A stretch of DNA of 64,000 nucleotides, from positions 43,006 to 107,005 of the IMG/VR virus record IMGVR_UViG_3300025121_000027. One strand, 5' to 3'. A program made the position numbers and the translations under genes. Under the pieces are notes generated by a model. That model was not told where the DNA came from. It saw only the letters and a list, made by a program, of their open reading frames with translations, and did not search any database. Shown here one piece after another: positions 41,566 through 58,104 of the stretch (its first letter is position 1; every line of letters begins with the position of its first letter). This stretch comes from a virus.

Positions 41566-44258
41566 TCGGATATTCCTTTTATTGCTTTTGCTTTTGCTTT
41601 TGCTTCAATCGCTAAATCTTCTTTATCACAGACAAGAGCGGCAGAAGATAACTTTAGCCATACTTCATAATCGGCAGGATACTTTTTAAGATATTCTTTA
41701 TAGTGAACAATTGCTTCGCCGTGTTTTTTTAGATTGCAAAGTAAATCCGCAATTATAGGAAGAAACGAATCAAATTCTTCTGCACCATTCATTGCTTCTA
41801 AAATGGTATCAATTCCGTATATAATTTTAGATGTATCTTCTTTTGTTTCTCCGTCGCATACAAGTACTTGCCCAAGTTCAAATTTATATCTTTTCTTTTC
41901 TGGATATTCTTTAACGAGTTGATTGTAAATAGGAATTGATTTTTCATATTCCTTGATTTGGAAATGTACCGTAGCAAGCCCCCACCTTGCTACTTCGTTT
42001 GTTGGAGATTTATCAACTGCTTTTTCGAGCATCTCTTTTGCTTTTGTGAAGTCTTTTTCTTTTCTACCTATCTCTTGTGCGTCAAACATTAATTGGATAG
42101 ATTCAATTGTATCGCTATTATCTGGAAGTTCTTTTGCTTTTTTAATTGCTTCATTAAATAGGCGATATGCTTTTAATAAAACATCAGTCGCATTTTCATC
42201 TATAAGTTTAAATTTACTTGCTTCAAGCATAGGTCTTGCGAAATTACCAACAGCAAAGTATTGTTCCGCATCTTCTATATTTGGCTCTGGTTCTTTCTGT
42301 TTTGGAATAAGTAAAGATAAATCTCTTGCTTCGGATACTTTTGTTAATTGTTGTAGTGTCTCTTTATAGGATTGCTTCAATTGTTTACAGGCATCAAATG
42401 CCGCTTGCAATATAATTCTATTTCTTTCAATTCTAATTTTAGCATCTTCTAATGAAGTAAGAATATGATCTTGATTACCATCAACTTTCATTGCTGCATG
42501 GTTAATCTTTCTTGTTGCGCCATACAAAGCGAGAATAACAAGAGGCAATCTAACAGCTATATTATGTGCGTTATCACTATAGAGTTTATTGCTTGAAAGA
42601 AGTTTATTGAATTTGTCTGTTTGATCTTTCTTCAATTTTTTTAAAGTTAGTGCTTTCAGTTTTGAATTTGTATCAAGTGCTTTCTTTGCATTTACTTGAC
42701 ATTCGTTCAAAAGAGATATTTCTTTTTCAAGAAGAGGTATTGATTCATCTACAAGTTCTAATGCATTACTACAATTAGAAAGCAATGGTTTAAGTTTATC
42801 TCTTTTATCTTCAATTTTATCTTTACAATATGTTTCCAATGCTCTCTTCAAAGACATTCTTTTTGCGCCTTGAATATTAGCACCACCTTCAGTCGCATTG
42901 ATTACATGAGAATCCATTCCTTTAATGAATCGTTCAAACGAAGTAATGAAAGAAGCAAGGCCAACATTCGTTATAACTTCACCACCAAAATATCCAGCGA
43001 CAGGAATAGGTGGCCCCATAGAAATATCTTGTACTTTGTTCAAATGACAACGTGGGTCTTGCACTTCCCATTTAATATCGCCTTGCTCGCTTCGTTTTAA
43101 AATACCCCTGCTATCTGCTTGTTGGAAATGAGATTGCTCGGAATCATATGCTAAATCTTGGCCGATCATAATCAAAGGAGAACAACCCAAGAGAATACTT
43201 AGGCCGTAGCACATATGAGCAACTGAACCGCCTTGCAAAGTCCATCCTTTATCAGAAAGGATTTTGTGTATTCTATTCTTATGATCTGGATGCATATCTA
43301 TTTGCGGCGAGCAAGCGACAAACATAGGCCCTTGCCATCTTTTAAGTAATGGGGCAAAAGACCTATTCAAAGCAACAAGTGGAATATTGCTTTCCATCAA
43401 TCCTTCATAATGCGTTAGATTGACTTCGCCATAATCAACAGAGCAAATGAAATCTGGATTGATACCATAAGCAAGCAACGGCCTTAATGCTTGTCCTACT
43501 GCAATAATGATTGCATTTTCTTGAGCCTCGATTAACAGATGAAGATTTTTAGAAAGAGAAGGGCCAGTAGAAACAAGAATGGCGGGAAGTCCTTTGTACA
43601 GCCCTTCAAGTTCTCTAACGCCTCTTCTATGGATAACGTATGGCAAATTGCTTATATCGTTATCGGCAATTTGTTTCCCTGCATTAGCAACCGTTCCGAT
43701 ATTGCATCTTGTTTGATTCAGAATAGATAATGCTTCAAAAGAAATTTGCTGATATGCATGATTGTCTATTGTATAACCTTCAATACAAGTTGCCCAATCG
43801 TCAATAACGTACTTCTCATTAATCAACTCCAACATATAAGATAGATCATCGATAGTTGGAGCAATCATCAACTTTTCTTCTTTTATTGCTTTTGAAATAT
43901 CTATTCTTTGTAGAGCCGCTTTCAATAGTCCTGGTTCGGATTCTACTACAATAATAATATGTTTATCTTCTGCTTTGTTTAATGCTTCTTGCAGAAAATA
44001 ACCAAGGCCAATGCCGATAATCATTGTCGCATTGGAACTATTGAAAGAAAAATCTTTTAGTCTTGCATCCGCTTCTTTTTTCCATCCTTCAATTGGATAC
44101 AGAGATTTTCTTTTTGTTCCTTTAACAATTAGAAGATTGTCTGTATTGTCTTCACTCTTGATTAGTTCTACCCATTCTGGAAGATTTGCTTTTTCTATCT
44201 TTTCAATAAACTCTGGAATAAGATGGTGCTTTAATGCTTCGATATTTCTATTGAACAA
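41562..44258 (-). CDS. maf: Maf-family (DUF115/MAF_flag10) nonulosonate glycosyltransferase with C-terminal TPRs
   Basis: GIGLGY, AILVSTGPSLSKN, GINPDF..SVD, GGSVAH, LGC.P..MIGQDLAY, INATEGGA.I.G; TPR-like helices after about aa 720. Confidence 0.85.
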   Translation of the reverse strand: MFNRNIEALKHHLIPEFIEKIEKANLPEWVELIKSEDNTDNLLIVKGTKRKSLYPIEGWKKEADARLKDFSFNSSNATMIIGIGLGYFLQEALNKAEDKHIIIVVESEPGLLKAALQRIDISKAIKEEKLMIAPTIDDLSYMLELINEKYVIDDWATCIEGYTIDNHAYQQISFEALSILNQTRCNIGTVANAGKQIADNDISNLPYVIHRRGVRELEGLYKGLPAILVSTGPSLSKNLHLLIEAQENAIIIAVGQALRPLLAYGINPDFICSVDYGEVNLTHYEGLMESNIPLVALNRSFAPLLKRWQGPMFVACSPQIDMHPDHKNRIHKILSDKGWTLQGGSVAHMCYGLSILLGCSPLIMIGQDLAYDSEQSHFQQADSRGILKRSEQGDIKWEVQDPRCHLNKVQDISMGPPIPVAGYFGGEVITNVGLASFITSFERFIKGMDSHVINATEGGANIQGAKRMSLKRALETYCKDKIEDKRDKLKPLLSNCSNALELVDESIPLLEKEISLLNECQVNAKKALDTNSKLKALTLKKLKKDQTDKFNKLLSSNKLYSDNAHNIAVRLPLVILALYGATRKINHAAMKVDGNQDHILTSLEDAKIRIERNRIILQAAFDACKQLKQSYKETLQQLTKVSEARDLSLLIPKQKEPEPNIEDAEQYFAVGNFARPMLEASKFKLIDENATDVLLKAYRLFNEAIKKAKELPDNSDTIESIQLMFDAQEIGRKEKDFTKAKEMLEKAVDKSPTNEVARWGLATVHFQIKEYEKSIPIYNQLVKEYPEKKRYKFELGQVLVCDGETKEDTSKIIYGIDTILEAMNGAEEFDSFLPIIADLLCNLKKHGEAIVHYKEYLKKYPADYEVWLKLSSAALVCDKEDLAIEAKAKAKAIKGISE

Positions 44259-44368
44259 AATTTATTCTCCTTTTCATAAATCAGAATCCCTACTCAACAT
44301 GAGAACTATGAGAAGTGAGCATGTATCTTGTAGGGATTTTCAGCGGGTACCTCGCCTATCTGATATTG

Positions 44369-45031
44369 TTATTTCGATGCTGTATATTTTGCTGCAAAAT
44401 CTCTCATTTCAACATAAGATAATTCGCTATATTTCATTGCCGCTTCTCTAAATACTTCTGGAGTATAGAAAACAGGCGGCGGCATTGGAAATTCAGAATC
44501 GCTTACAACAACATTATATTTTTCATCAAGACGATAATAAACAATTCCCAATTCTTCATTTTCTTCATTGTTTTGTTTGTTTAACTTTACAACTTGAACA
44601 TGCCATGCAGCAATAGCATCTCCAACAGCAAGATAAATGGTATCGTCCAGCTTATTATTTCTTTCGAGAATAGAAAGAATAGATAATGCTTTGTCTACAC
44701 AAGCGCCATAAGCAACAATTTTTACTCCAGCTTTATTACTTTCTGCTGTCCATCCAGTAGCCCCATCCGGCATAGTAAAAGTTGCTGTTCCATCTGGCGC
44801 AATACTTACATTAGTATATTGATTTTCTGTTGCTCCTGAATAATTAGAATATGAATATTTTCTTACAAGTCTTTTTGCATTATAATAATTATAAATACCG
44901 GTTGTTATTAGCGTAGCAATTAAAGCTATAACCAAACACTTAATACTGTGTTTTAAATCACTACATTCTTCTTCTTTCTCTGCAAGATGTTTTCTCAATA
45001 TGACAAAAGACATAGGATTCATAATATTCAT
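44369..45031 (-). CDS. Membrane-anchored hypothetical protein
   Basis: One TM segment near the N-terminus. Confidence 0.55.
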   Translation of the reverse strand: MNIMNPMSFVILRKHLAEKEEECSDLKHSIKCLVIALIATLITTGIYNYYNAKRLVRKYSYSNYSGATENQYTNVSIAPDGTATFTMPDGATGWTAESNKAGVKIVAYGACVDKALSILSILERNNKLDDTIYLAVGDAIAAWHVQVVKLNKQNNEENEELGIVYYRLDEKYNVVVSDSEFPMPPPVFYTPEVFREAAMKYSELSYVEMRDFAAKYTASK

Positions 45032-45360
45032 CCTCTCGCTTGCCTGTTTTTATAGTTATTGATAAACTTCTTTTCTACCTCTGTAAGATCAGAAGGCATA
45101 TAGTAACCTTTATAAAAAGAAATATAATATGGATGATTGTGTTTTACAGAAGGATTGTCGTTTTTAAAAGAACTTCTTGTAAACAATGCTTGTCTTGCTC
45201 TTTCAAAAGCAATTTTCCTTCCTGTCAATTTGCAAGGATTATCTCCGTAAGAACAAACAGAAATACCCCTTGCATATTCATCGCCATCAATTAGAAAGCA
45301 TTCAGTAATCATCGGCTTGTTATCTTCTGTTCTCTCGTACAGATAATAATCTTTCATCAT
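45028..45360 (-). CDS. Hypothetical phage protein
   Basis: T.C....ARG.S.CS..DN..K..GR.IA..RA motif seen in small phage proteins. Confidence 0.6.
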   Translation of the reverse strand: MMKDYYLYERTEDNKPMITECFLIDGDEYARGISVCSYGDNPCKLTGRKIAFERARQALFTRSSFKNDNPSVKHNHPYYISFYKGYYMPSDLTEVEKKFINNYKNRQARG

Positions 45361-45387
45361 TGATTTTTCTCCTTTTAGTTTGTTGGA

Positions 45388-45756
45388 TTATCTGGCCATC
45401 CTTATAAGATCTTTCAACGCTTGGTATTCTGGATTAAATAAATCTGGAACTTCGGAAATAGTAGCAATGCCAGAAGCAATCAATCCAATTAATGAAGCAA
45501 TACAAAGAATGGAGAAAAAATAGACATATTTGTTCCCCTCATCCCAATCAAATAATTTGTATTTATCTCCAATAAACAAAAATGCGATTGTTATTAGTGT
45601 AAGAATAATAAAGAAACCAAATAAAATCAAAGCAGAATATGCTTCAACAATTTGTTGTTTAACCAACCATGGCCAAACTTGTTCTACAGTAACTCCGATT
45701 TTTTCGGCAATTTTATCAAGATAATTTGTAACAAGTTCTACATATTCTTTTTCCAT
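45388..45756 (-). CDS. Two-TM membrane protein
   Basis: LDKIAEKIGVT.E.VW..LVKQ...FNPEY.AL. Confidence 0.65.
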   Translation of the reverse strand: MEKEYVELVTNYLDKIAEKIGVTVEQVWPWLVKQQIVEAYSALILFGFFIILTLITIAFLFIGDKYKLFDWDEGNKYVYFFSILCIASLIGLIASGIATISEVPDLFNPEYQALKDLIRMAR

Positions 45757-45757
45757 G

Positions 45758-46120
45758 TCATTCTCTCCTTCTTCGTTTTGGTTTTTCTTCCGTTGTTTCC
45801 GTTGTTTCTTCTATGGCATCTTCTGTAACTTCTATCTTTTCATTATCATCTTTTGCTTTGAATGAAGGCAGGATTACATTGTTGTTTACCAAATATGAAT
45901 CTCTTTCGTATTGCGTTTCTTTGCAGAAAGATAAATATCTTTCACATTGATTTTTGCAAATAGTTTTAGATTGACAACATCCTAAATCAACCCACAATCC
46001 TCCTGTTAAATTCTTTTTATGTTGACATTCTTCTGGTGGGTTAAGAAGAAACCCTCCCCAGTTAGTTATTCTTTTAACAACTTTTCTTATTGGTTGTAAG
46101 CCGTCTCTTCGCTTTTTCAT
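45758..46120 (-). CDS. Cys-rich hypothetical protein
   Basis: ORF track; compact packing with neighbours. Confidence 0.5.
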   Translation of the reverse strand: MKKRRDGLQPIRKVVKRITNWGGFLLNPPEECQHKKNLTGGLWVDLGCCQSKTICKNQCERYLSFCKETQYERDSYLVNNNVILPSFKAKDDNEKIEVTEDAIEETTETTEEKPKRRRRE

Positions 46121-46336
46121 TTGTTACTCCCACATGTGCCGATAAAAACATACACTTGAGAAACTTGAATAGTTGATATAAAATCTTCTTTCTCTTTCGC
46201 TGAAATCATCCCATCTTTTTGTTTTGTTTAAACTATCCCAATTTTCTCTTCTGCTTAAATCACTCCAAAAACAATCTTTTTCAAAGGCTTCAGAGCCTAA
46301 ATACCAATGTTTGAATAAATGATTTATTCTCATTTG

Positions 46337-46624
46337 TTACCTCCACATATTCTTATATTTGATTTTATCTTCCCAATTTTCTATCAACTTCCATACGACA
46401 TGATTTTCTTTGTAATATTGTTTTTTTAATGGTGTTTTAAAATCTGCTTTCAGAAATTCAAATCCATAATAAGGATTGAAATGCCATCTATATACTTTGC
46501 CTTTATCTGCTGTTGCCCACCCTAAAAAATAGGCATGTGAACATTCTTCGCAGTAATTGCATGGATAAGAATTACAATGCAGACTTGAGCATATCGTTGG
46601 TGTTATCATATTCTTTCTTCCCAA
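46337..46624 (-). CDS. Cys-rich hypothetical protein
   Basis: ORF track. Confidence 0.5.
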   Translation of the reverse strand: MGRKNMITPTICSSLHCNSYPCNYCEECSHAYFLGWATADKGKVYRWHFNPYYGFEFLKADFKTPLKKQYYKENHVVWKLIENWEDKIKYKNMWR

Positions 46625-46853
46625 TCTTCTGTGTATTCATACTTTTCACAACTCCACATAGTAGTCCAAGACCAATGCTCGAAAAAGCAATGATAATGAT
46701 CTGGAAAGTCTCTCCACTTAGGATCAATACCGAGACAATCTGCTTTAACTTGCTGGAATAAACATTGTCTACATGCTGGCATTTGTCTATCCTCTTGCTT
46801 TACACTTAGGACATATCGGAGCGATGTTTAAAGTAAGATACTTTCATATATCA

Positions 46854-46882
46854 ATTATAATAAGAATAGAGCTAAAAATAAA
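46854..46882 (-). promoter_or_regulatory. Conserved sigma70-like phage promoter, copy 1
   Basis: Minus strand TTTATT-N17-TATAAT; same motif at 50181, 50506 and 62748. Confidence 0.75.
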
Positions 46883-46920
46883 GCCAAGGGCAAAGATACA
46901 TACTTGCCCTTGGCTTTATT
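46877..46920 (-). terminator. Intrinsic terminator closing the Ro-like operon
   Basis: 17-bp inverted repeat AATAAAGCCAAGGGCAA / TTGCCCTTGGCTTTATT followed by a T-run on the minus strand. Confidence 0.75.
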
Positions 46921-46979
46921 CTCTGCAACGTCAGAACAGCTTCTAATTGAGTTTAAACGCATATTCGGTTTCTTTTAAA

Positions 46980-47102
46980 ATACCGCATTGTTGGACTCGA
47001 ACCAACTCCTTTCTCATATGCTGTTCAAGCATGATCACCATTGGCCGTCGTGCTGTCTTACTGCATCATGTTGACTATTCTTCCCAGAACTAAATGCGGC
47101 AT
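46980..47102 (-). ncRNA. Enlarged tRNA-like RNA (~123 nt) with extended anticodon arm and no CCA
   Basis: 10-bp terminal stem AUGCCGCAUU/AAUGCGGUAU, UA linker, D-like arm GUUC/GAAU, long stem UCAACAUGAU/AUCAUG(C)UUGA, T arm GUUGG-UUCGAGU-CCAAC. Confidence 0.7.
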
Positions 47103-47107
47103 ATTTG

Positions 47108-47410
47108 TTACTTCAACCTTGCTTCTAGTTCCGCCACTTCTGCATCTACACTTTGCCGAATCTCTCTCCTGGACAATAGAGAAGCTTGCCGCGCTTTTGC
47201 CGCCTTCAACCTTCGGAGCAATTCATCTTTAGTGCGTCTGCTGATTTCAGAAACAATAGCAGAACTTTGAACCAAAACCCAATCAGGCGCATCGACTTTC
47301 AACTCTTCGTAGCCATCAGACAGTACTTTCAATTGTGCTTTGCCAAGAATCAATTCTTCCAAAGACAAGTTTTCCAAACAAGTAGTTTCGCTAATAATCA
47401 AGTTTCTCAT
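47108..47410 (-). CDS. Small alpha-helical coiled-coil protein, probable partner of the Ro-like protein
   Basis: LEEL...YEEL.V.APDWV...EISRR....L...LK....R...L.SR.E; same operon. Confidence 0.6.
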   Translation of the reverse strand: MRNLIISETTCLENLSLEELILGKAQLKVLSDGYEELKVDAPDWVLVQSSAIVSEISRRTKDELLRRLKAAKARQASLLSRREIRQSVDAEVAELEARLK

Positions 47411-47664
47411 TTTTGCTTTTCTCCTTTTTTGAGTTCTTTTATGGTAGATACCATTTTGCAGAAATCAAATAAGTATTTACGATCATTAAGAACTAAAACA
47501 ACATTAGTTTTCTTTTCTATTGAAAGAATCATACACTCTTCTTCACAAACATTTTGACTGCTTCCAGGAATCGCACTAACTACAATTTCTCTTATATGAA
47601 TTGTATTAAGTTTTCTTTCTTTTCTTTCTGCATACATTTTACCTTCCCTCCTTTTTAAATACAT
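47407..47664 (-). CDS. Hypothetical protein
   Basis: Overlaps both neighbours; GGAGG RBS before MYAERK. Confidence 0.55.
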   Translation of the reverse strand: MYLKRREGKMYAERKERKLNTIHIREIVVSAIPGSSQNVCEEECMILSIEKKTNVVLVLNDRKYLFDFCKMVSTIKELKKGEKQK

Positions 47665-49105
47665 CTTTAAGAGTCAACAAGGGAATCTGCATGATCTCAT
47701 CCACCAAACTATACTTACTTGTTCGCATGGTCTTAATCAAATTGGGAAGTGAATAATAATCTACATTATTCCCAAGCTCAAACTTTTGCAATTGAATATC
47801 TGCACTCTCGCAGTAAGAAGACATTCTATCATTTTCGCCAGGAACATGAAACATATAAACAGTTGGCTCAATACCAATATCTCTTCTATAATCATCATAA
47901 GCATTGTGAAAATAAGGAGAGCGATTATCACCGCCATCAGTACAGACAGCAATTCCGTTTACCACAATTCCTTTTTCTTTAATTAGCTCCAAGCCACAAC
48001 CAATAGAAGTGCTGCCAGTTGCAGTCAATCGTTTTGTATCATTCTTAATTTGCTCCAATGTCTTTCCTGTAACATCAAAATAAATCGGAGTATCATTAAA
48101 AAAAACAAGATGAACATTACCCTTAACTTGTCTTGCAATCAAAGCAGCAACATTTCTTGCAACTTCAATAGAAGTCTGCATAGAGCCAGAGCGATCCCCG
48201 AGCACAAGCCAATCACCATCAATACTACTATTGTCCAACTTATCTTCTTGCGCTTTGTGAAGTTTAGCGGAAAGCTTCTTATCTGTCTTTGCTACCGCTT
48301 CAGCAGCTTTCGTTATCTTCATCGAAGGTGTTTTCTTATCTTTCTGCATCCTTACTATACCATTATCATAAGCAGCTTTCAATGCAGGGTTTTCAAATAC
48401 TCCCATTTTTTGAAGCATGTTTGTATTTGTAATAAGTTCTGCTCCTGTCATGCGTTCAATCAGAGCAAGAATAACATCGGACTTTCCCTTAATACCACCA
48501 AGAGCACCAACAGCAATAAGATATGGTATCTTATGATTAAGAATTGCACCAGCGGCTTCTTGCGCTTTCATGTTTTTTAAATCTTTGACAACTTGAAAAA
48601 CACTATTCTTTGGATATTTCTTTTCAAATAGAATCTCTTGTGCTCGTTTATTTGGCTTGACATGATAGATAGCATAAAGACTTTTCATGGATTCTCTATG
48701 CTGCAATACAGTTCTATCCCACCAACCAATAGACTTTTCTCTTTCTCTGATAAACATTCTAACAGCTTGCTTTAACCAAGTACCGCCACCCTCTTGACAT
48801 AGCGGCAATTCTCTATGGTATCTACAAGCCCTCAAGAAGTCTTTAGGGGAAAGCTTGCAGAGATGAGCGGCGGCATTTTCATATAGTTCATCATCTTTGC
48901 TGCTGCGTAAAGATAGAATAGGAAAAGCCACTTTACTATCTCTTACTTCGCCCTTCAGTTCATTCCACGCAATGATATGTGCAAACAGTTCTGGCTCATG
49001 CTTTACTGCTTTCAAACCGATATCATTGTAAATAGAGAGATTGCCATGACCGACGCGCAGGAGTTGATTCACAATTTGATTTTGCGATGCTGCGATCTTT
49101 TCCAT
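47639..49105 (-). CDS. Divergent Ro60/TROVE-like helical domain plus vWA (MIDAS) protein
   Basis: Start refined to MEKIAAS (488 aa); ~290 aa helical N-domain then vWA with LGDRSGSM, TGSTS and CTDGGDN; flanked by tRNA-like RNAs as Ro60 loci are. Confidence 0.7.
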   Translation of the reverse strand: MEKIAASQNQIVNQLLRVGHGNLSIYNDIGLKAVKHEPELFAHIIAWNELKGEVRDSKVAFPILSLRSSKDDELYENAAAHLCKLSPKDFLRACRYHRELPLCQEGGGTWLKQAVRMFIREREKSIGWWDRTVLQHRESMKSLYAIYHVKPNKRAQEILFEKKYPKNSVFQVVKDLKNMKAQEAAGAILNHKIPYLIAVGALGGIKGKSDVILALIERMTGAELITNTNMLQKMGVFENPALKAAYDNGIVRMQKDKKTPSMKITKAAEAVAKTDKKLSAKLHKAQEDKLDNSSIDGDWLVLGDRSGSMQTSIEVARNVAALIARQVKGNVHLVFFNDTPIYFDVTGKTLEQIKNDTKRLTATGSTSIGCGLELIKEKGIVVNGIAVCTDGGDNRSPYFHNAYDDYRRDIGIEPTVYMFHVPGENDRMSSYCESADIQLQKFELGNNVDYYSLPNLIKTMRTSKYSLVDEIMQIPLLTLKDVFKKEGR

Positions 49106-49106
49106 T

Positions 49107-49217
49107 TTATTTTTCCTTTTGGTTGTTAGATTTTTTACAATAGAACAAATTATAGTGCTTTGTCGCTCTAACAGCAATTCTTAATCTTTTTGCTGCTTTT
49201 CTTTTATGTTTATTCAT
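49107..49217 (-). CDS. 36-aa basic peptide MNKHKRKAAKRLRIAVRATKHYNLFYCKKSNNQKEK
   Basis: Read manually; its stop is 1 nt before the ATG of the Ro-like gene. Confidence 0.4.
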   Translation of the reverse strand: MNKHKRKAAKRLRIAVRATKHYNLFYCKKSNNQKEK

Positions 49218-49239
49218 GATTTATTCTTTCCGTTTAAAG

Positions 49240-49317
49240 TGGCGCGCCTGGCAGGGCTCGAACCTGCGACCTAATGATTAGAAGTCATTTGCTCGTATCC
49301 AACTGAGCTACAGGCGC
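49240..49317 (-). tRNA. tRNA-Arg(UCU)
   Basis: GCGCCUG/CAGGCGC acceptor, D arm, AAUGA-CUUCUAA-UCAUU, GCAGG-UUCGAGC-CCUGC, encoded CCA. Confidence 0.95.
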
Positions 49318-49335
49318 ATAAATTTTTTCTAAAAA

Positions 49336-49378
49336 AATAGGCTTGAGAATCAGAATACTATTGTTTCTCAAGCCTATT
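49336..49378 (-). terminator. 14-bp hairpin followed by a U-tract
   Basis: AATAGGCTTGAGAA / TTCTCAAGCCTATT; A-run at 49331-49337 gives the U-tract on the minus strand. Confidence 0.55.
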
Positions 49379-49559
49379 AAAATTTGAGTGCGGATGCATT
49401 GTTCCTTCGATGTCCTTCGATAAAGGATTAGCACTCATATTCCTAAACTCATCAGCCGTTTTTAGCCATCCTCATATATTACTTTTGAGCATAATGATTT
49501 GCCTATGAGGACTGAAGGTATAAAACAAATCATATGTGACGTCTCAAAAGAAATCTAAC

Positions 49560-49634
49560 TGGTCGCCGAAGAAGGACTCGAACCTTGCATGAATGTTCCC
49601 AAAACACTCGTGTTACCACTACACTACTTCGGCG
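49560..49634 (-). tRNA. tRNA-Pro(UGG), apparently 8-bp acceptor / 4-bp T stem
   Basis: CGCCGAAG/CUUCGGCG, A73, CCA; AGUGU-UUUGGGA-ACAUU; AAGG-UUCGAGU-CCUU. Confidence 0.85.
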
Positions 49635-49644
49635 TAAAACTAAA

Positions 49645-49774
49645 AAAAGGGGAAAGTCGAAAAAGTTTTATACTACTTTTGATACAGGACTTGAACCTGC
49701 TACCGATTGCTTGGAATGCAATTGCTCTACCAAATTGAGCTAATCATGTAAACTTTTAAGCGGTATCCCCTTTT
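49645..49774 (-). ncRNA. Y-RNA-like element E1 carrying a UCC-anticodon tRNA module (49680-49746)
   Basis: Outer stem AAAAGGGGA/UCCCCUUUU, loop UACCGCUU/UCGACUU, inner stem AAAAGUUU/AAACUUUU, ACA, then a cloverleaf with 4-bp acceptor. Confidence 0.8.
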
Positions 49775-49783
49775 GTGTTCAAA

Positions 49784-49925
49784 TTAGCAAGAAGTCGTAT
49801 AAGCTATGTTGATTATACAGATTGATTTAGAGTCAATTGCGTATACCATTCCGCCTTATTCTCCGAAGAAAATAGAAGGAGTCGAACCTTCAAGTATCAT
49901 GTAAGCTTAATGCGGTGCTTGCTAA
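49784..49925 (-). ncRNA. Y-RNA-like element E2 carrying a circularly permuted CUA-anticodon tRNA (49810-49899)
   Basis: Outer stem UUAGCAAG/CUUGCUAA, CACCGCAU/UACGACUU, UAAGCU/AGCUUA, ACA; arm order T arm, UUCG-capped acceptor, D arm, anticodon arm. Confidence 0.82.
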
Positions 49926-49936
49926 ACTTTTTAAAA

Positions 49937-50007
49937 ATGGCGAGAAGTTATATAAGCTCTCTATTGTTTACTCCAGAAACATGTAAGCTTAAGATGATAC
50001 CCGCCAT
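49937..50007 (-). ncRNA. Y-RNA-like element E3, scaffold only
   Basis: AUGGCGGG/CUCGCCAU, UAUCAUCU/UAUAACUU, UAAGCUU/GAGCUUA, ACA, short apical hairpin. Confidence 0.72.
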
Positions 50008-50016
50008 AAGAACTTT

Positions 50017-50150
50017 TAAATCAGTAAGTCGAATAAGCTTTTTACTTTGGTTGCAATTGTTGGATTTGAACCAACTACTTATTCTTTATGAGAGAATCGC
50101 TCTACCAAATTGAGCTAAGTTGCGTGTAGGCTTAATCTGTAACTGATTTA
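50017..50150 (-). ncRNA. Y-RNA-like element E4 carrying a complete CAU-anticodon tRNA with CCA (50048-50124)
   Basis: UAAAUCAGU/ACUGAUUUA, UACAGAU/UUCGACUU, UAAGC/GCUUA, ACA; 77-nt tRNA CGCAACU...AAUUGCA-ACCA. Confidence 0.82.
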
Positions 50151-50161
50151 ATTTTCAAAGA
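50150..50161 (-). promoter_or_regulatory. boxA-like antitermination element
   Basis: UCUUUGAAAAUU between promoter and RNA array; identical copy at 50470-50481. Confidence 0.65.
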
Positions 50162-50180
50162 TCAATTGTTATTCTGAAAT

Positions 50181-50209
50181 ACTATAATAGAAAAGTTTTA
50201 AAAAATAAA
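50181..50209 (-). promoter_or_regulatory. Conserved promoter, copy 2 (drives the ncRNA array)
   Basis: TTTATT-N17-TATAGT. Confidence 0.72.
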
Positions 50210-50226
50210 GAGTAGATAAAATTTTT

Positions 50227-50465
50227 GTTTGCATGGCTGCCAGGATTCGAACCTGGACAACCGATTTGCGTAGCTTCTGCCCTACGCTCGTACGCTGCTG
50301 CGCGAGTAAATCCTCGATTGATCCGCACAGTTCGTCAGCAGATCCTTCTCGGCCAAAGTGCGGTGCGTTTCCGTGGGTTATTCAGCGTCATTTTGGAAGA
50401 TTGTTCATGCAATCTTTTGTCTACCCAAATGTCCTTTCGCCAACTTTCCGCCACAGCCAGCAAAC
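50227..50465 (-). ncRNA. Giant (~239 nt) tRNA-like RNA
   Basis: 12-bp terminal stem GUUUGCUGGCUG/CAGCCA(U)GCAAAC, UGGCGGAA D-arm start, T arm CCAGG-UUCGAAU-CCUGG, several internal hairpins; GC-rich; has its own promoter and boxA. Confidence 0.72.
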
Positions 50466-50469
50466 TATT

Positions 50470-50481
50470 AATTTTCAAAGA
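50470..50481 (-). promoter_or_regulatory. boxA-like antitermination element
   Basis: UCUUUGAAAAUU, identical to 50150-50161. Confidence 0.65.
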
Positions 50482-50505
50482 CCATCTTAAACTTGATTCT
50501 GACTT

Positions 50506-50534
50506 ATTATAATAGAGACTTTTAGAAAAATAAA
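50506..50534 (-). promoter_or_regulatory. Conserved promoter, copy 3
   Basis: TTTATT-N17-TATAAT. Confidence 0.75.
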
Positions 50535-50546
50535 GCCAAGCTAAAA

Positions 50547-51365
50547 TTAATTTCCAGTATAGCTTTTCGGCATAGGTATCTTATCCGAATTTGCCAACTT
50601 AGAACTTGCTTCCTGTATTTGCTTATCACAATCAACAATTTTCTTCATTATATCTTTGGCCTTTTCCGGTACAGAATCAAAAGCAAGCCTTACCAAATCC
50701 ATCCATCGTTTATTATTTTTCCCTCTAATTTCTTCTATCTTATTGATTAATTCTTGATCGCTTTGTTTTTCAGAAGATATGCCAAAAACTTTTTCAAAAG
50801 GATCTATATTTTTCTGTTCTTTCAACAATCCATATTCATAAACATCTACAAATTCACCATTAAGAAACATTGCTTCCTTAAAGATACCCTCTTTTTTAAA
50901 CCCGAGTTTTTCAAATACTTTTTGCATACCGATATTTGTTGCTGCTGTGCCACTCCAGATTCGATTCAATCCAAGTTTTTTAAATCCATGCTCGCATATC
51001 TCTTTAACCGCAAAAGTCGCAACTCCTTTACCATAATAATCTGGTTCACCAATTACAATGGCAATTTCAGCAGACCTATTAATTAGATCAATTCTTTGAA
51101 GTGAAACATTACCGATATGCTTAGGTCCTTTAACTAAGATACTCCAAATTATTCTTGATTCGTCATATTGCAATGTTTCTTTTATGTCTGTATCTGGAGA
51201 GTACGGGAAAAGTCCATGACTGTTTTTTGAAACTACTTCTGGACGATTAAACCAAAACTTATAATCAGAATTAATATTTTTGTTGTCGTATACTTCACAG
51301 AATGGAGCAAGATGAATAGTTCCTGCTTTTTCACTATAGGTTGTTGCTAAGACATTATAATTCAT
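50547..51365 (-). CDS. RimJ/RimL-type GNAT acetyltransferase (PseH-like) with an extra C-terminal helical domain
   Basis: HIGNVSL..ID..NRSAE..I.IGE..Y.GKG.A, N.GM..V.EKLGF.KEG. Confidence 0.8.
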   Translation of the reverse strand: MNYNVLATTYSEKAGTIHLAPFCEVYDNKNINSDYKFWFNRPEVVSKNSHGLFPYSPDTDIKETLQYDESRIIWSILVKGPKHIGNVSLQRIDLINRSAEIAIVIGEPDYYGKGVATFAVKEICEHGFKKLGLNRIWSGTAATNIGMQKVFEKLGFKKEGIFKEAMFLNGEFVDVYEYGLLKEQKNIDPFEKVFGISSEKQSDQELINKIEEIRGKNNKRWMDLVRLAFDSVPEKAKDIMKKIVDCDKQIQEASSKLANSDKIPMPKSYTGN

Positions 51366-51733
51366 TAACCATTCTCCTTTAACATCTCTTCTATTTTATT
51401 CCAATATAAATGTTCAACTGGTATTCCAAATTCATCCGCATTTACTTTTTCAATATGAATACCAAATGATTCTGTCCAGCCAGGAGCGCAAACAATAATC
51501 ATCTTATCCGCCCACTCTACAAGGATTGGCAAATCTTGAGCAAGCCAAAAGTTATGATCTAAATGACTGACTCCTTTTAATACTTTTGAAATCGGGTGGC
51601 TGTGAGATAAAGGAGAAAATACTACATGACCCGCTTTCATTAAAATGCCAGCAATCTTATCTGCTATATCAACGCGATATTCACAAACAGAATAATCCTT
51701 ATGAGAATAAGGGCAAGCCAAATAGATTTTCAT
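51365..51733 (-). CDS. Nucleoside 2-deoxyribosyltransferase-like protein (DUF1937-like)
   Basis: KIYLACPYSH, VFSPLSHSH, GW.ES.G...E. Confidence 0.8.
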   Translation of the reverse strand: MKIYLACPYSHKDYSVCEYRVDIADKIAGILMKAGHVVFSPLSHSHPISKVLKGVSHLDHNFWLAQDLPILVEWADKMIIVCAPGWTESFGIHIEKVNADEFGIPVEHLYWNKIEEMLKENG

Positions 51734-51735
51734 TT

Positions 51736-51996
51736 TTAAATCCTTTTCAGTTTAATTGCTTCATGTTTGTTTAGTTTGTCAATAAATACATCTACCATAT
51801 CTGGATGGCATACAACCAAATTAGCGCTTACAAAATAATAAAATTCAGAAGATGGAACTTGTTTAGTATATTTCTTTCTATACTTCTTAATCCATCTTGC
51901 ATTACTTTTCTTTTTAGGATGTTTAGTTTGAATAACTTCTAAAAGATTATTGTTTGTTTTTATTCTTATATTTGTTGGAAGAGGGTTAATCACCAT
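51736..51996 (-). CDS. Hypothetical basic protein
   Basis: ORF track; packed between neighbours. Confidence 0.55.
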   Translation of the reverse strand: MVINPLPTNIRIKTNNNLLEVIQTKHPKKKSNARWIKKYRKKYTKQVPSSEFYYFVSANLVVCHPDMVDVFIDKLNKHEAIKLKRI

Positions 51997-52957
51997 TTAA
52001 CAATCCTTTAATTACTTCAATATTGTCTGTATACAAAGGATTTCTATCGTCGCTGTATAGGCAATCCTTTAAAGAAGTTATCCACAAAGAAATTCCTTGC
52101 GGCGCTATAATATACTTATCTTCTTTCTCATTTGTTCTGAATATCTCTTCTTGATTGATTAACATTTCATGCGCTTTTTCCCCAGGTCTTCTTCCTACAA
52201 TTTTCCAATTACTTTCATCTGTTCCTGTCGTCGCTTTTATAAATACTTCTAACGAACAAGAAATCATCTTTGGAATATAAGTATACCCAGGCATACAGCT
52301 ATCAAGACAATCTAAAACAAACTTTGCAACTTTAGGAAGCGGAATCCAAAAGCGAGTCATTTCAGGATCAGTAATTGGTATTTTCTTTCCTTTATCAAGA
52401 AGTTTAATCATGTCTAAAATACTACCTCTTGAACCAATTACATTTCCATATCTAACAACAGCAAAATTAGTTCCCCACCCACCGCTATAAATGCTACCTC
52501 TTGACCATAATTTTTCAGCGCACATTTTGCTTGCGCCATATAGATTGATACTCTCCACCGCCTTATCGGTGCTAATAAACATTGCGCTTTTTACATTGGC
52601 AGCAATGCAAGCCATCATAACATTTTCTGTCCCATATACATTTGTCTTGATATATTCTAATGGATTATCTTCTGCTATCGGTACATGTTTCAATGCAGCA
52701 GTATGAATAACATGAGTAACACCTTTCAATGCTTCCGCTAATCTTCGATAGTCTCTAACGTCTCCTATAATAAAAGCAATAGGAGGCATGTCTTTTCCTT
52801 CTAATTGTTTCTTTAAATTATACTGCTTTAATTCGTCCCTACTATAAATCCGTATCCCTTTAATGTTTTTATTTCCTTCAAGTTGATTGAGAATTGCTTT
52901 TCCTAATGAACCAGTACCACCAGTTATTAGATATTCGCGTTTATATTCTATTTTCAT
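51986..52957 (-). CDS. pseB: UDP-N-acetylglucosamine 4,6-dehydratase (PseB/FlaA1-like)
   Basis: ITGGTGSLG, YSRDELKQ, HTAALKHVP, STDKA...NLYGASK, RYGNV.GSRGS, ITDPEMTRFW, RPGEK.HE. Confidence 0.9.
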   Translation of the reverse strand: MKIEYKREYLITGGTGSLGKAILNQLEGNKNIKGIRIYSRDELKQYNLKKQLEGKDMPPIAFIIGDVRDYRRLAEALKGVTHVIHTAALKHVPIAEDNPLEYIKTNVYGTENVMMACIAANVKSAMFISTDKAVESINLYGASKMCAEKLWSRGSIYSGGWGTNFAVVRYGNVIGSRGSILDMIKLLDKGKKIPITDPEMTRFWIPLPKVAKFVLDCLDSCMPGYTYIPKMISCSLEVFIKATTGTDESNWKIVGRRPGEKAHEMLINQEEIFRTNEKEDKYIIAPQGISLWITSLKDCLYSDDRNPLYTDNIEVIKGLLNGD

Positions 52958-53178
52958 TTAGCCTCTTTCGTTCTATCGTCTGCTGAAACAACAGTATCTA
53001 TAATACAGTATTTACAGAAACGGCCTTGATTAAAGTATTTACCGTTGCCAGTAATAATCTTTATAGATAGTTGTTTGTTAGTTATTGGGTCTTTATAAAT
53101 TATAAATGTAAGATCTGGATGACTGAAATTTTTATTGGTAATCTCCATGCCGCATATATCGCAAAATGTTTTAACCAT
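52954..53178 (-). CDS. Small zinc-finger protein
   Basis: FCDICG ... FCKYC. Confidence 0.6.
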   Translation of the reverse strand: MVKTFCDICGMEITNKNFSHPDLTFIIYKDPITNKQLSIKIITGNGKYFNQGRFCKYCIIDTVVSADDRTKEAK

Positions 53179-53180
53179 AG

Positions 53181-53729
53181 TTATACTTTCTGATAACTTT
53201 GTTGAAGCATCCTGAATATCTTTGCTTTAATAGAAGCAGAAGAGCGACCAAGAGTTTTAGATGTTTCTTGAATAAAATGATTTAATCCACTACGCAAACA
53301 TGCTTCTTCTACTACCGCCCACTTTATCTTCTCACTTAAATTCATTGCTTCTTTCTTATCGTCTTCAACATAGCTTACAGTTTGTTTTCCTGTAATGCGT
53401 TCCGTAATTGCTGCTTGAACATATCCTTTAGAAGCAAGATGTTTATTAGCAAGCTTCTCTTCAATCTTTTCTTCTACCCATTGCTGAATAGACTTAGGTC
53501 TTGATTTATTATAAAACTTTTTTTCTACTTCATTATATTCTTCTACAAGAGGATAAGTATCAAATGGTCCTTTAAAAGACATAAACTTTTCATCCCAAAC
53601 AATCCATCCGGCTTTATATCTATGGATGTTGCCAATCTTTTCTATCGGTTCTTCATTTGCAATTTGAGAATAAATTTCAGTATTCACTTTTACTTCTCCT
53701 TTCGCACTTTGATTGATGGTCTTTTGCAA
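53181..53729 (-). CDS. Hypothetical protein with C-terminal HTH-like segment
   Basis: SKTLGRSSASIKAK. Confidence 0.5.
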   Translation of the reverse strand: MQKTINQSAKGEVKVNTEIYSQIANEEPIEKIGNIHRYKAGWIVWDEKFMSFKGPFDTYPLVEEYNEVEKKFYNKSRPKSIQQWVEEKIEEKLANKHLASKGYVQAAITERITGKQTVSYVEDDKKEAMNLSEKIKWAVVEEACLRSGLNHFIQETSKTLGRSSASIKAKIFRMLQQSYQKV

Positions 53730-54565
53730 TCTTTTTCATCTGCTCTTAAATCAATATCTTTTCTATCTTCTCTCGACATAAAATTATCAATCCAGTTTTG
53801 CTCTACATCTGCTTTCTTCATTGCATTTGCAATATCGATTGTTTTAAATGCTGTTTCTGGATACCAGCAATGGCCATGCCTTGATTCATTACCTTTCAAA
53901 TCTACAAGATCAAAATGCATTTCAATTACTTTTGCCCCAGCATTAATAGCCGCAAGAATAGAGCCGATGTTTCTTGTATGGTCTGAATACCCAATCGCTC
54001 CACATACATGAGAAAAAGACTGAATGATTCCTTTTAGAATATCTATTCTTGCATCTTCTGCCGGATAAGAACTAATGCAATGGAAAATACAATCTTCATC
54101 ATTAGGTTTCATCTCTTTTGTAATAGAATAGATTTCAGAACGAGTACACATACCAGTAGAGACAAAAACAGGAAGATTTGTTTCTTTGCATTTACTAATC
54201 AATTCAGAGTTCATACATTCATAACTTGATACTTTTAGAAAGTCTACATACTTCGATACTACTTCAATATCTTCTACATTAAAAACAGAACAGCCAAAAC
54301 CAATCTTATGTAAATTGCAAAGTTGTTTTGTGTGAGCAAGAACTTCTTCTGTAATTTCTCCTCTCTTCGCCATTGCTATCCTATCTGGAAATTCTTTTGA
54401 CCATAATTTTTCTGCTTTATAGTATTGTAATTTGATAGCATCAAAGCCACAAATTCTTGCCGCTTCTACAAGCAAAGAAAGTCTATCTGGATCTTGATTA
54501 TGATTGCTGCCTAATTCAGCTACAAAATAAACGTCGTTATTTTGAGAATAAGGAAATGCTTTCAT
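53690..54565 (-). CDS. NeuB/PseI-family nonulosonic acid synthase
   Basis: VAELGSNHN, DAIKLQ, KVSSYE, STGM, HCISSYP, GYSDHT, GA.VIEMHF. Confidence 0.92.
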   Translation of the reverse strand: MKAFPYSQNNDVYFVAELGSNHNQDPDRLSLLVEAARICGFDAIKLQYYKAEKLWSKEFPDRIAMAKRGEITEEVLAHTKQLCNLHKIGFGCSVFNVEDIEVVSKYVDFLKVSSYECMNSELISKCKETNLPVFVSTGMCTRSEIYSITKEMKPNDEDCIFHCISSYPAEDARIDILKGIIQSFSHVCGAIGYSDHTRNIGSILAAINAGAKVIEMHFDLVDLKGNESRHGHCWYPETAFKTIDIANAMKKADVEQNWIDNFMSREDRKDIDLRADEKDCKRPSIKVRKEK

Positions 54566-54864
54566 AGTTTAATCCTTGTTTTATCAGTAGTATTTTCCAA
54601 AGTAATAGAAATTTTTCTATCTCCTATTTTAGTAATTACTACAACATAAATAGGAGCTAAGTACCCAGGTTCCGTAACAGGAAGTTTTTCATGGAAAGCA
54701 TGATATTCAATAGTATTGCCAAAGTCTGTAAATTCTGCTTTATAAATTATAAGACCAGAAGAAAATAACTTCTTTGCAACTTCATAACTATTTTCAAGAC
54801 AATATTTTGTGATAGCAAATTTACAACATCTATTATTTATAACAGGATTGCTCATATCTTTCAC
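54562..54864 (-). CDS. Hypothetical protein
   Basis: ORF track. Confidence 0.55.
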   Translation of the reverse strand: MKDMSNPVINNRCCKFAITKYCLENSYEVAKKLFSSGLIIYKAEFTDFGNTIEYHAFHEKLPVTEPGYLAPIYVVVITKIGDRKISITLENTTDKTRIKL

Positions 54865-54867
54865 CTA

Positions 54868-56444: not shown

Positions 56445-56462
56445 AGTTTTAATCCTTTCTTT

Positions 56463-58102: not shown

Positions 58103-58104
58103 TT

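What the first reader, a model, noticed from the sequence alone, without database searches (positions are those of the whole stretch)
46980..50534. Phage Ro60/TROVE-like protein with an array of modular Y-like RNAs carrying different tRNA cargo
Seen: four tandem minus-strand elements (50017-50150, 49937-50007, 49784-49925, 49645-49774) share one architecture. Each has an 8-9 bp outer stem whose sequence differs completely between copies yet still pairs, a conserved internal loop (5' YACCGC/UACAGA-like; 3' U.CGACUU), an inner AAGCUU-like stem, and an invariant ACA. The insert after ACA differs: a full CAU tRNA, a short hairpin, a permuted CUA tRNA, and a UCC tRNA with a 4-bp acceptor. The array has its own promoter and boxA and lies upstream of a helical+vWA(MIDAS) gene and two small genes, bracketed by two enlarged tRNA-like RNAs. 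Known: bacterial Ro60 (Rsr) binds the stem of adjacent Y RNAs, and YrlA-type Y RNAs mimic tRNA but lack an anticodon arm. Inference: this is a programmable RNP in which one protein-binding handle displays several anticodon-bearing tRNA mimics. Possible roles are decoys for host anticodon nucleases, protected tRNA reserves, or adaptors recruiting tRNA-binding enzymes. I do not know of a described array of this form.
Basis: partly seen in the sequence, partly recalled or inferred. Interest (0 to 1): 0.96.

Follow-up and report, generated by a model that had tools for sequence, protein, structure and literature searches.

The report
Phage Ro60-like protein, Y-RNA array
A complete 107-kb phage from groundwater encodes a hidden relative of the RNA-binding ring protein Ro60. 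Just upstream lie four small RNAs that share one conserved "handle" but carry different tRNA look-alikes; this pairing recurs in dozens of uncultured phages, and I found no paper or RNA catalogue that describes it.

Summary
Four tandem minus-strand RNAs (50017-50150, 49937-50007, 49784-49925, 49645-49774) share an outer stem, an internal loop, an inner stem and UACAYG, and carry four different inserts.

- **RNA specificity.** A covariance model seeded mostly on other phages finds exactly these four in the 64-kb window. It finds 120-212 more copies in related viral loci, all on the protein gene's strand and mostly within 2.5 kb upstream. It finds none in 666 kb of unrelated viral DNA.
- **Covariation.** The outer stem is 98% paired, and all 7 pairs change on both sides.
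- **Protein.** The 488-aa protein has no Pfam TROVE hit. Its model matches Ro60 structures full length (Z about 20, about 430 residues), and its MIDAS residues are invariant.
- **Partner.** A 100-aa three-helix protein follows the gene in at least 33 loci.

I read this as a phage Ro60/Y-RNA particle with a new Y-RNA subfamily. It is not Rfam YrlA: the score is 21.5 bits against a cut-off of 69, and the conserved CGACUU sits on the 3' strand. RNA binding and function are untested, and the decoy idea remains speculation. The promoter/boxA claim and the two flanking "enlarged tRNA-like" RNAs are only partly supported.

This scan has already found related handle-RNA arrays beside Ro60-like genes on other DNA.

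The parts
47639..49105 (-). Gene for a 488-aa divergent Ro60-like protein: N-terminal helical-repeat ring plus C-terminal vWA domain with MIDAS (D304, S306, S308, T366, D390 invariant)
   Evidence: AF2 model pLDDT 86. The top 13 Foldseek PDB hits are all Ro60, E 8e-12 to 1.5e-7. VIA Z 18-20.5 over about 430 residues. Family profile against Xenopus Ro60 sequence: E 5.4e-5. phrog_850 'RNA-binding protein' 1.4e-10. No Pfam TROVE hit. Invariant columns.
47108..47410 (-). Gene for a 100-aa three-helix protein, the conserved downstream partner of the Ro60-like gene
   Evidence: tblastn finds it directly after the Ro60-like gene on the same strand in 33 related loci. Alignment A7. AF2 pLDDT 90, three helices. 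No Pfam, PDB or fold match.
47407..47664 (-). 85-aa ORF between the two conserved genes; not conserved, so membership is doubtful
   Evidence: No tblastn match in any related locus and no family hit.
50017..50150 (-). Y-like RNA E1: handle plus a complete standard-order tRNA (CAU anticodon, encoded ACCA, two C-A mismatches in the acceptor stem)
   Evidence: R1 32.7 bits, E 8.5e-7. ARAGORN tRNA-Met 50048-50124. Rfam tRNA 60.1 bits. Fold. The mismatches are my reading of the sequence.
49937..50007 (-). Y-like RNA E2: handle plus a short hairpin (minimal form)
   Evidence: R1 55.3 bits, E 2.3e-13; fold. About 30 of 103 distinct family members have this short form.
49784..49925 (-). Y-like RNA E3: handle joined at the variable-arm position of a circularly permuted tRNA-like body (T arm, UUCG-capped 7-bp acceptor stem, D arm, CUA anticodon arm)
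   Evidence: R1 32.8 bits. After re-permutation ARAGORN calls a class-II-like tRNA (cta) in 272 of the tested cuts. Ten relatives share this layout, six of which ARAGORN also calls.
49645..49774 (-). Y-like RNA E4: handle plus a standard-order tRNA-like body with a 4-bp acceptor stub, UCC anticodon and no CCA
   Evidence: R1 35.0 bits. Rfam tRNA 47.8 bits over model positions 4-67. Not called by ARAGORN.
49560..49634 (-). Ordinary tRNA-Pro (UGG), 10 nt after E4 in the same transcription direction
   Evidence: ARAGORN; Rfam 57.3 bits. The relative L002 also has tRNA-Pro(UGG) between its array and the gene.
49331..49376 (-). Terminator-like hairpin of about 13 bp followed by a U run, between the RNA array and tRNA-Arg plus the Ro60-like gene
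   Evidence: Read from the sequence and seen in the fold. Missed by the consensus scan because its loop is longer than 8 nt. Function not tested.
49240..49317 (-). Ordinary tRNA-Arg (UCU) just upstream of the Ro60-like gene
   Evidence: ARAGORN; Rfam 67.6 bits.
50148..50191 (-). Leader of the array: TCTATTATAGTA (50180-50191) and the boxA-like GATCTTTGAAAATTAA (50148-50163), which overlaps the first bases of E1
   Evidence: Both motifs occur again only at 50505-50516 and 50468-50483, before the 239-nt RNA. Promoter and antitermination roles are inferred, not tested.

Best explanation
This is a phage-encoded Ro60/Y-RNA-type ribonucleoprotein system.

**Components.** The 488-aa protein is a very divergent Ro60: a helical-repeat ring plus a vWA domain with an intact metal site. 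The four RNAs upstream are its Y-RNA-like partners.

**Handle (shown).** Each RNA pairs its 5' and 3' ends into a handle made of:
- an outer stem of free sequence;
- a conserved internal loop, YAC(U)G on the 5' strand and CGACUU on the 3' strand;
- an inner stem;
- a nearly invariant UACAYG.

**Binding (inferred).** The handle is the protein's docking site, as the conserved stem and bulge are in known Y RNAs.

**Body (shown).** The body grafted onto the handle differs between copies: a complete tRNA, a bare hairpin, a sealed permuted tRNA with an anticodon arm, and an acceptor-truncated tRNA. All bodies except the hairpin keep the tRNA elbow.

**Function (inferred).** By analogy with Rsr-YrlA-PNPase and phage phiLo Ro60-Yrl-PNPase, each body tethers the ring to a different tRNA-binding or RNA-processing host or phage factor. 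This would direct or block RNA decay, surveillance or repair during infection in phages that carry their own tRNA sets. The units lie 9-11 nt apart in one orientation, which suggests a polycistronic precursor cut into single RNAs. The conserved 100-aa three-helix protein is probably a further subunit.
For: - **Protein fold.** Full-length match to Ro60 structures from human, Xenopus, Deinococcus and Thermus phage phiLo. Collinear profile match to Xenopus Ro60. MIDAS residues invariant in 35 homologues.
- **RNA specificity.** R1 finds only the four elements in the window and 120 copies in 43 related viral loci, all on the gene strand. Of these, 115 are upstream at a median of 725 nt and 111 lie within 2.5 kb.
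- **Wider search.** R2 finds 212 copies, all on the gene strand, in arrays of up to 7, and does not hit the many ordinary tRNAs in those loci. Weak same-strand upstream hits appear in loci that were negative before.
- **Negative control.** 0 hits in 666 kb of unrelated viral contigs.
- **Covariation.** The outer helix is 98% paired and 7/7 pairs change on both sides. The score is 0.78 against 0.17 for shuffles (0/500) and 0.09-0.18 for slid partners.
- **Conserved unpaired bases.** A9, C25, A26 and A245 are 100% conserved and G28 is 99%, while the stems vary freely. This is the pattern expected of a protein-binding site.
- **Bodies.** They fall into recurrent classes, including a hairpin-T-acceptor-D layout with YrlA topology.
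- **Precedent.** YrlA near Rsr in 254 bacteria and 22 phages (PMC4201824). Two Yrl RNAs upstream of phiLo Ro60 that bind it and host PNPase (PMC12135203).
Against: - No binding, expression or processing data exist. No RNA run is listed for this phage.
- The protein has no Pfam TROVE signature.
- The RNAs fail the Rfam YrlA model (21.5 bits against 69). They also lack the published Ro-binding motif GNCGAAN0-1G on the 5' strand; the conserved CGA lies on the 3' strand.
- No consistent enzymatic neighbour such as PNPase, RtcB or a ligase was found, so the effector is unknown.
- E1 and several relatives are complete tRNAs with CCA. These could simply be released as tRNAs.
Confidence: 0.75

Rival explanations
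1. The handles are processing or 'caging' signals of phage pre-tRNAs. Leader and trailer pair into a stem that a nuclease recognises, so that tRNAs with special anticodons are released in a controlled way. On this view the Ro60-like gene merely lies in the tRNA region, or chaperones the precursors.
For: - E1 is a complete tRNA with ACCA.
- Three relatives carry 7-bp acceptor stems with an encoded CCA, one of them a perfect UUA-anticodon tRNA.
- The arrays sit in tRNA operons with tRNA-like spacing.
- M. smegmatis YrlA is cut by RNase P and receives CCA.
- Many capped acceptor loops in relatives begin with NCCA.
Against: - About 30 of 103 distinct handles carry only a hairpin.
- Most other bodies are sealed or permuted. 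The hairpin-T-acceptor-D class and the three-hairpin class also lack an anticodon arm.
- The anticodons include AAU, ACU, AUC and AAA, which by general knowledge bacterial decoders do not use.
- The tens of ordinary tRNAs in the same loci never carry the handle.
- No stop-codon recoding would call for the CUA body.
Confidence: 0.12
2. The repeats act at the DNA level or as cis-regulatory RNA and are not stable RNAs. They would be either mobile repeats or homing-endonuclease targets, or leader/attenuator structures that control the Ro60-like gene.
For: - HNH endonuclease genes lie inside or next to the arrays: 13 of the 140 neighbouring ORFs scanned, drawn from 35 related loci.
- The elements lie mostly upstream of the gene.
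Against: - Strict strand specificity, with compensatory changes that keep pairing while the sequence is free.
- The tRNA-like bodies keep T- and D-loop signatures.
- Up to 7 tandem copies occur, and in one phage all copies lie downstream of the gene (L005).
- A terminator-like hairpin separates the array from the gene in this window.
Confidence: 0.04

Closest known systems
Bacterial and phage Rsr (Ro60) with YrlA/YrlB Y RNAs (Chen et al. 2014, PMC4201824; Wang et al. 2018, bioRxiv 10.1101/312249; Rfam RF02553)
   Same: - A Ro60-fold protein with small RNAs encoded within a few kb.
- The RNA 5' and 3' ends pair into a stem with an internal loop.
- The bodies mimic tRNA through the T/D elbow.
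- A closed acceptor stem and the T-acceptor-D order occur in E3, and in many relatives that have exactly the YrlA topology.
- Short forms without a tRNA body (YrlB-like) coexist.
   Different: - The protein is too divergent for Pfam TROVE.
- The RNAs score 21.5 bits against the 69-bit cut-off, and no related locus reaches it.
- The conserved handle bases differ and the CGA motif is on the opposite strand.
- Arrays hold 4-7 copies rather than 1-2.
- The handle is grafted at different points: the acceptor end, the variable arm or the anticodon stem.
- Many bodies keep a canonical anticodon loop, which YrlA lacks.
- Some bodies are complete tRNAs with CCA.
Thermus phage phiLo Ro60 with Yrl1/Yrl2 (NAR 2025, PMC12135203; PDB 9KOP, 9L5Y)
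   Same: - A phage-encoded Ro60 with Y-like RNAs directly upstream of the gene.
- It is among the best structural matches to this protein.
- A stem-bulge-stem handle with a conserved CGA-containing motif.
   Different: - Sequence identity is only about 16%.
- phiLo has two RNAs, which that paper does not describe as tRNA-like.
- The phiLo motif is CGAA.
- Binding to Ro60 and host PNPase is shown for phiLo and untested here.
Circularly permuted tRNA genes of Cyanidioschyzon merolae and some archaea (cited in Wang et al. 2018)
   Same: E3 and its relatives have a T arm, a closed acceptor stem and a D arm, with the transcript ends paired outside the tRNA body. Many relatives encode NCCA at the start of the acceptor loop.
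   Different: In those genes the ends pair as the anticodon stem and are spliced to give real tRNAs. Here the join is at the variable-arm position and carries a conserved protein-type handle. E3's acceptor stem is sealed by UUCG with no CCA. I know of no bacterial splicing endonuclease that could process it.

Membership tests
Ro60 / TROVE (Rsr) proteins | Helical-repeat ring followed by a vWA domain, in one chain of about 500 aa | tested here: met
   The AF2 model (pLDDT 86) aligns over residues 9-466 to ten Ro60 entries with Z 16.8-20.5. vWA-only chains reach Z<=14.6 over about 160 residues. Foldseek E 8e-12 to 1.5e-7.
Ro60 / TROVE (Rsr) proteins | MIDAS motif (DxSxS ... T ... D) in the vWA domain | tested here: met
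   D304, S306, S308, T366 and D390 are invariant in 35 homologues.
Ro60 / TROVE (Rsr) proteins | Sequence signature of the TROVE domain (Pfam) | tested here: not met
   Pfam lists only weak VWA_2 and VWA_CoxE matches at E<=0.1. None of the 120 listed homologues carries a precomputed TROVE hit. The family profile does reach the Xenopus Ro60 sequence at E 5.4e-5 in two collinear stretches.
Ro60 / TROVE (Rsr) proteins | Binds Y RNA on the outer ring surface and single-stranded RNA ends in the hole | not testable with these tools
   Needs EMSA, RIP or a solved complex.
YrlA (Rfam RF02553) | Reaches the Rfam gathering score | tested here: not met
   The best match in the window is 21.5 bits (E 0.38) against a cut-off of 69, and it is driven by the D arm. 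There is no YrlA hit at gathering score in 13 related loci, 144 kb.
YrlA (Rfam RF02553) | Encoded within about 4 kb of a Ro60 gene | tested here: met
   The window elements lie 0.5-1.0 kb upstream. In relatives, 111 of 115 upstream copies lie within 2.5 kb.
YrlA (Rfam RF02553) | Ro-binding motif GNCGAAN0-1G on the 5' strand of the terminal stem (Chen et al. 2014) | tested here: not met
   The 5' strand consensus is YACUG. The conserved CGACUU lies on the 3' strand.
YrlA (Rfam RF02553) | tRNA-like module in T-acceptor-D order with a closed acceptor stem and no anticodon loop, joined through the anticodon stem | tested here: not met
   None of the four window RNAs has this layout. E3 has the T-acceptor-D order but keeps an anticodon arm and joins at the variable arm. 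E1 and E4 are in standard order. About 20 relatives do have the YrlA layout.
Functional tRNA genes | Complete cloverleaf with a 7-bp acceptor stem, free ends and a usable anticodon | tested here: inconclusive
   - E1 passes ARAGORN and Rfam and has ACCA, but has two acceptor-stem mismatches and is enclosed by the handle.
- E4 has a 4-bp acceptor stub and no CCA.
- E3 is sealed and permuted.
- E2 has no tRNA body.

The most novel reading that the evidence does not exclude
One ring protein and its helical partner use a universal handle to load a set of interchangeable tRNA mimics, including anticodon-loop displays with fast-changing triplets and CCA-end mimics. The phage uses these as decoys or sponges for host tRNA-targeting defences such as anticodon nucleases, or as a platform that shelters and repairs its own tRNAs. 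That would be a new counter-defence principle built on a Y-RNA scaffold.
Probability: 0.1. Interest if true: 0.9.

Novelty: new variant of a known kind. Interest (0 to 1): 0.62.

Why it matters
- **Open question.** After 40 years, what the variable module of Y RNAs recruits is still largely unknown. For bacterial YrlA the tRNA-like domain has no known partner.
- **What this family offers.** It is a natural series in which one handle is fused to at least five body types: a full tRNA, an acceptor-truncated tRNA, two permuted layouts with or without an anticodon arm, and CCA-bearing minihelices. That makes the question directly testable by pull-downs with single bodies.
- **Ro60 is wider in phages than annotation shows.** This clade has over 700 homologues in protein collections. 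In the searches run here it had no Pfam TROVE hit or functional name, and its only match among GenBank phage records is one uncultured huge phage.
- **tRNA-based arms races.** If the bodies act on host tRNA nucleases or tRNA enzymes, the system would bear on current work on phage-host conflicts over tRNA.

Tried and rejected
- **Rfam over the region at E<=1.** Only tRNA hits, one weak YrlA match and chance hits. No hit for the 239-nt RNA, the 3' tRNA-like RNA or the 49376-49560 region.
- **Sigma-70 and terminator consensus scan.** Fewer promoter-like sites than in shuffles, and none at the array start.
- **Expression.** No RNA holder is listed among public runs. Laying DNA contigs of four groundwater/soil runs gave only identical low-depth pieces and unrelated tRNA-Arg matches, so there was no natural variation to read.
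The metagenome scan returned only relatives of 63% identity or less.
- **Loose DNA pattern over IMG/VR** (ACTG..TACATG..CGACTT). It gave over 119 stretches, none of which the handle model accepts. I kept this only as a negative control.
- **Cultured phages and genomes.** GenBank phages hold one hit, a 595-kb uncultured phage at 30% identity with no handle nearby. Prokaryote genomes give four short MAG contigs.
- **Stop-codon recoding** as a reason for the CUA body: no sign.
- **The 100-aa partner.** No Pfam, NCBIfam, PHROG, PDB-sequence, atlas or fold match.
- **Neighbourhood enrichment.** Among 140 flanking ORFs, only HNH endonucleases (13) and RF-1-domain proteins (4) recur. RNA ligase and a cyclic-phosphate receiver domain occur once each.
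- **Homologues of the two large flanking RNAs** in related loci: none.

Full report
**Setting.** The window is bases 43006-107005 of a complete 107,005-bp virus record with direct terminal repeats. The DNA occurs in groundwater and soil metagenomes. Everything discussed here lies on the minus strand.

**The four RNAs.** Each of the four stated intervals folds on its own into the same frame: an 8-9 bp terminal stem, an internal loop of 7-9 nt on each side, and a 5-8 bp inner stem that encloses the insert (z about -3). I then built covariance model R1 from seven short-insert copies, six of them from other phages, giving it only the two handle helices as structure. Searched over both strands of the 64-kb window at E<=10, R1 returns exactly four matches.

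- **E1** is a complete CAU tRNA with ACCA (ARAGORN; Rfam tRNA 60.1 bits). By my reading of the sequence, its acceptor stem has two C-A mismatches.
- **E2** is a 17-nt hairpin.
- **E3** has a T arm, a UUCG-capped 7-bp acceptor stem, a D arm and a CUA anticodon arm. When I cut the cap and joined the sequence through the handle side, ARAGORN called a class-II-like tRNA (cta) in 272 of the tested cuts.
- **E4** matches the tRNA model over positions 4-67 only, meaning a 4-bp acceptor stub and no CCA, with a UCC anticodon.

**The protein.** Pfam sees only a weak vWA match. PHROGs gives phrog_850 'RNA-binding protein' at 1.4e-10. More than 700 homologues exist, and none of the 120 listed carries a functional name or a TROVE hit. 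A profile of 35 of them reaches the Xenopus Ro60 sequence at E 5.4e-5 in two collinear stretches.

The AlphaFold model (pLDDT 86) matches Ro60 structures full length. The top 13 Foldseek hits are all Ro60, from human, Xenopus, Deinococcus and Thermus phage phiLo (E 8e-12 to 1.5e-7, TM about 0.6-0.65). The second-look aligner gives Z 16.8-20.5 over about 415-438 residues spanning 9-466. Chains that are only vWA stop at Z 14.6 over about 160 residues. The MIDAS residues D304, S306, S308, T366 and D390 are invariant. This is a Ro60-fold protein that sequence annotation misses.

**Linkage and covariation.** I fetched 73 viral loci that encode homologues, each oriented with the gene on the plus strand.
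- **R1** finds 120 handles at E<0.01 in 43 loci, and all 120 are on the plus strand. Of these, 115 are upstream at a median of 725 nt from the start codon, and 111 lie within 2.5 kb. The 5 downstream copies are all in one phage.
- **R2**, rebuilt from these hits, finds 212 copies, again all on the gene strand, in arrays of up to seven. The tens of ordinary tRNAs in the same loci are not hit.
- **Previously negative loci** show weak same-strand hits just upstream of the gene.
- **Control.** 80 unrelated viral contigs (666 kb), preselected to contain the loose sequence motifs, give no hit.

On the 99 distinct sequences the outer helix is 98% paired, and all 7 pairs change on both sides. The covariation score is 0.78, against 0.17 for shuffles (0 of 500 reach it) and 0.09-0.18 when the partners are slid. 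The alignment was fitted to the model, which favours pairing, but the slid controls and the free stem sequences make the helix secure.

The unpaired bases show the opposite pattern. A9, C25, A26 and A245 are 100% conserved, G28 is 99%, and C10, U11, G244, C246 and U247 are 92-96% conserved. Free stems combined with fixed loop bases are what a protein docking site looks like.

**Bodies.** Among 103 distinct handles I see six recurrent types:
- **(A) Hairpin only**, about 30 copies.
- **(B) Standard-order tRNA or tRNA-like.** Some have a 7-bp acceptor stem and CCA, others a 3-4 bp stub. The anticodons include CAU, GAA, UUC, UGC and UGA, but also UUA, AAU, ACU, AUC and AAA.
- **(C) Permuted: T arm, capped acceptor stem, D arm, anticodon arm.** This is E3's type. 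Loops read CU-NNN-AA with varying triplets.
- **(D) Hairpin, T arm, capped acceptor stem, D arm.** This is the YrlA topology and the most common type.
- **(E) Variants of D** with extra hairpins.
- **(F) Three hairpins**, including a G/C-rich acceptor-like minihelix.

In capped acceptor loops, CCA is the most frequent trinucleotide right after the first loop base (27 of 290 hairpins, in 18 elements). This amounts to a closed copy of a tRNA 3' end.

The triplets differ between the closest relatives: class C reads CUA here and CAU in L002, and class B reads CAU here and UGA in L002. The genome shows no stop-codon recoding. Most bodies therefore look like mimics rather than decoders. E1 and three relatives with an encoded CCA could still be released as tRNAs.

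**Other conserved parts.** A 100-aa protein follows the Ro60-like gene on the same strand in 33 related loci. It models as three helices (pLDDT 90) and has no recognisable relatives. The 85-aa ORF between the two genes is not conserved. Among 140 neighbouring ORFs, only HNH endonucleases (13) and RF-1-domain proteins (4) recur, and no PNPase or RtcB recurs.

**Claims that are only partly supported.** The consensus promoter scan does not support a promoter there, and the boxA likeness is from my memory. The two large flanking RNAs fold with closing stems and T-arm-like hairpins. They have no family match and no homologues in related loci, so they are not demonstrably part of the system.

**Comparison with what is known.**
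- Chen et al. 2014 described YrlA next to Rsr in 254 bacteria and 22 phages. It is a permuted T-acceptor-D tRNA mimic with the motif GNCGAAN0-1G on the 5' strand.
- Wang et al. 2018 showed that YrlA lacks an anticodon loop and has a closed acceptor stem.
- The phiLo study found two Yrl RNAs upstream of a phage Ro60 that bind it and host PNPase.
- Iyer et al. 2021 note TROVE proteins in some jumbo phages in the context of RNA repair.

The present system works like these but fails the YrlA membership tests. It scores 21.5 bits against 69, none of 13 related loci reaches the cut-off, and its conserved CGA is on the other strand. It also differs in copy number, in where the handle is attached, and in keeping anticodon loops and complete tRNAs. 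My literature searches found no description of such arrays.

Earlier notes of this same scan report related Ro60-like genes with handle-RNA arrays, mostly with an ACAGCAA-type handle, on many other genomes. One unfollowed note on another genome describes the handle seen here. I did not test those notes.

**Verdict.** The reading as a Ro60-like protein with modular Y-like RNAs is well supported by fold, linkage and covariation. Binding and function remain inferred. I rate it a new variant of a known kind.

Noticed in passing
window 50227-50465 (-): A GC-rich structured RNA of about 239 nt with a 12-bp closing stem and a canonical T arm next to the 3' strand. It is preceded by the same two leader motifs as the array. 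There is no CCA, no ARAGORN tmRNA or tRNA call, no Rfam hit at E<=1, and no homologue in the related loci.
   Followed up: partly
window 46980-47102 (-): A tRNA-like RNA starting 5 nt after the stop of the 100-aa gene. It has a 7-10 bp acceptor-like stem, a D arm and a T arm, but about 60 nt in place of the anticodon arm, and that stretch contains ACAUG. It is not called by ARAGORN or Rfam, its fold z is only -1.8, and it has no homologue in related loci.
   Followed up: partly
window 49376-49560 (-): The roughly 185 nt between tRNA-Pro and the terminator-like hairpin fold unusually well together with that hairpin (z -4.2 for 49318-49560). The stretch contains CUGAUGAG and CGAA strings reminiscent of a hammerhead core, but there is no Rfam hit. 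Its identity is unknown.
   Followed up: partly
window 49107-49217 (-): A 36-aa, very basic ORF (MNKHKRKAAKRL...) whose stop codon is separated from the start codon of the Ro60-like gene by a single base. I did not examine its conservation.
   Followed up: no
related loci, e.g. L014:4346-4987, L018:4418-4957, L030:4436-4987, L034:4189-4725: HNH endonuclease genes sit inside or beside the handle-RNA arrays: 13 of the 140 neighbouring ORFs scanned, drawn from 35 related loci. RF-1-domain (peptidyl-tRNA hydrolase-like) proteins are neighbours in 4.
   Followed up: partly
related loci, e.g. L026:4637-4774, L030:3185-3321, L042:3877-3995: The capped acceptor-like stems of permuted bodies often start their loop with NCCA, a closed copy of a tRNA 3' end. 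CCA is the top trinucleotide at that position. A separate body class has a CCCCCC-U-CCA...GGGGGG minihelix and no T arm.
   Followed up: partly
window handles (UACAUG in E2-E4, UACACG in E1) and all relatives: The nearly invariant UACAU(G) at the junction of inner stem and body equals, from my memory, the UACAU recognition sequence of MazF-type endoribonucleases of Gram-positive bacteria. This could be coincidence, since the motif is constant across loci of 33-64% GC.
   Followed up: no
window 50547-51365 (-) and beyond: A GNAT acetyltransferase gene lies directly upstream of the RNA region. Another first-reader note places it in a nonulosonic-acid/glycosylation gene set at 41562-58854. I did not examine this.
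   Followed up: no
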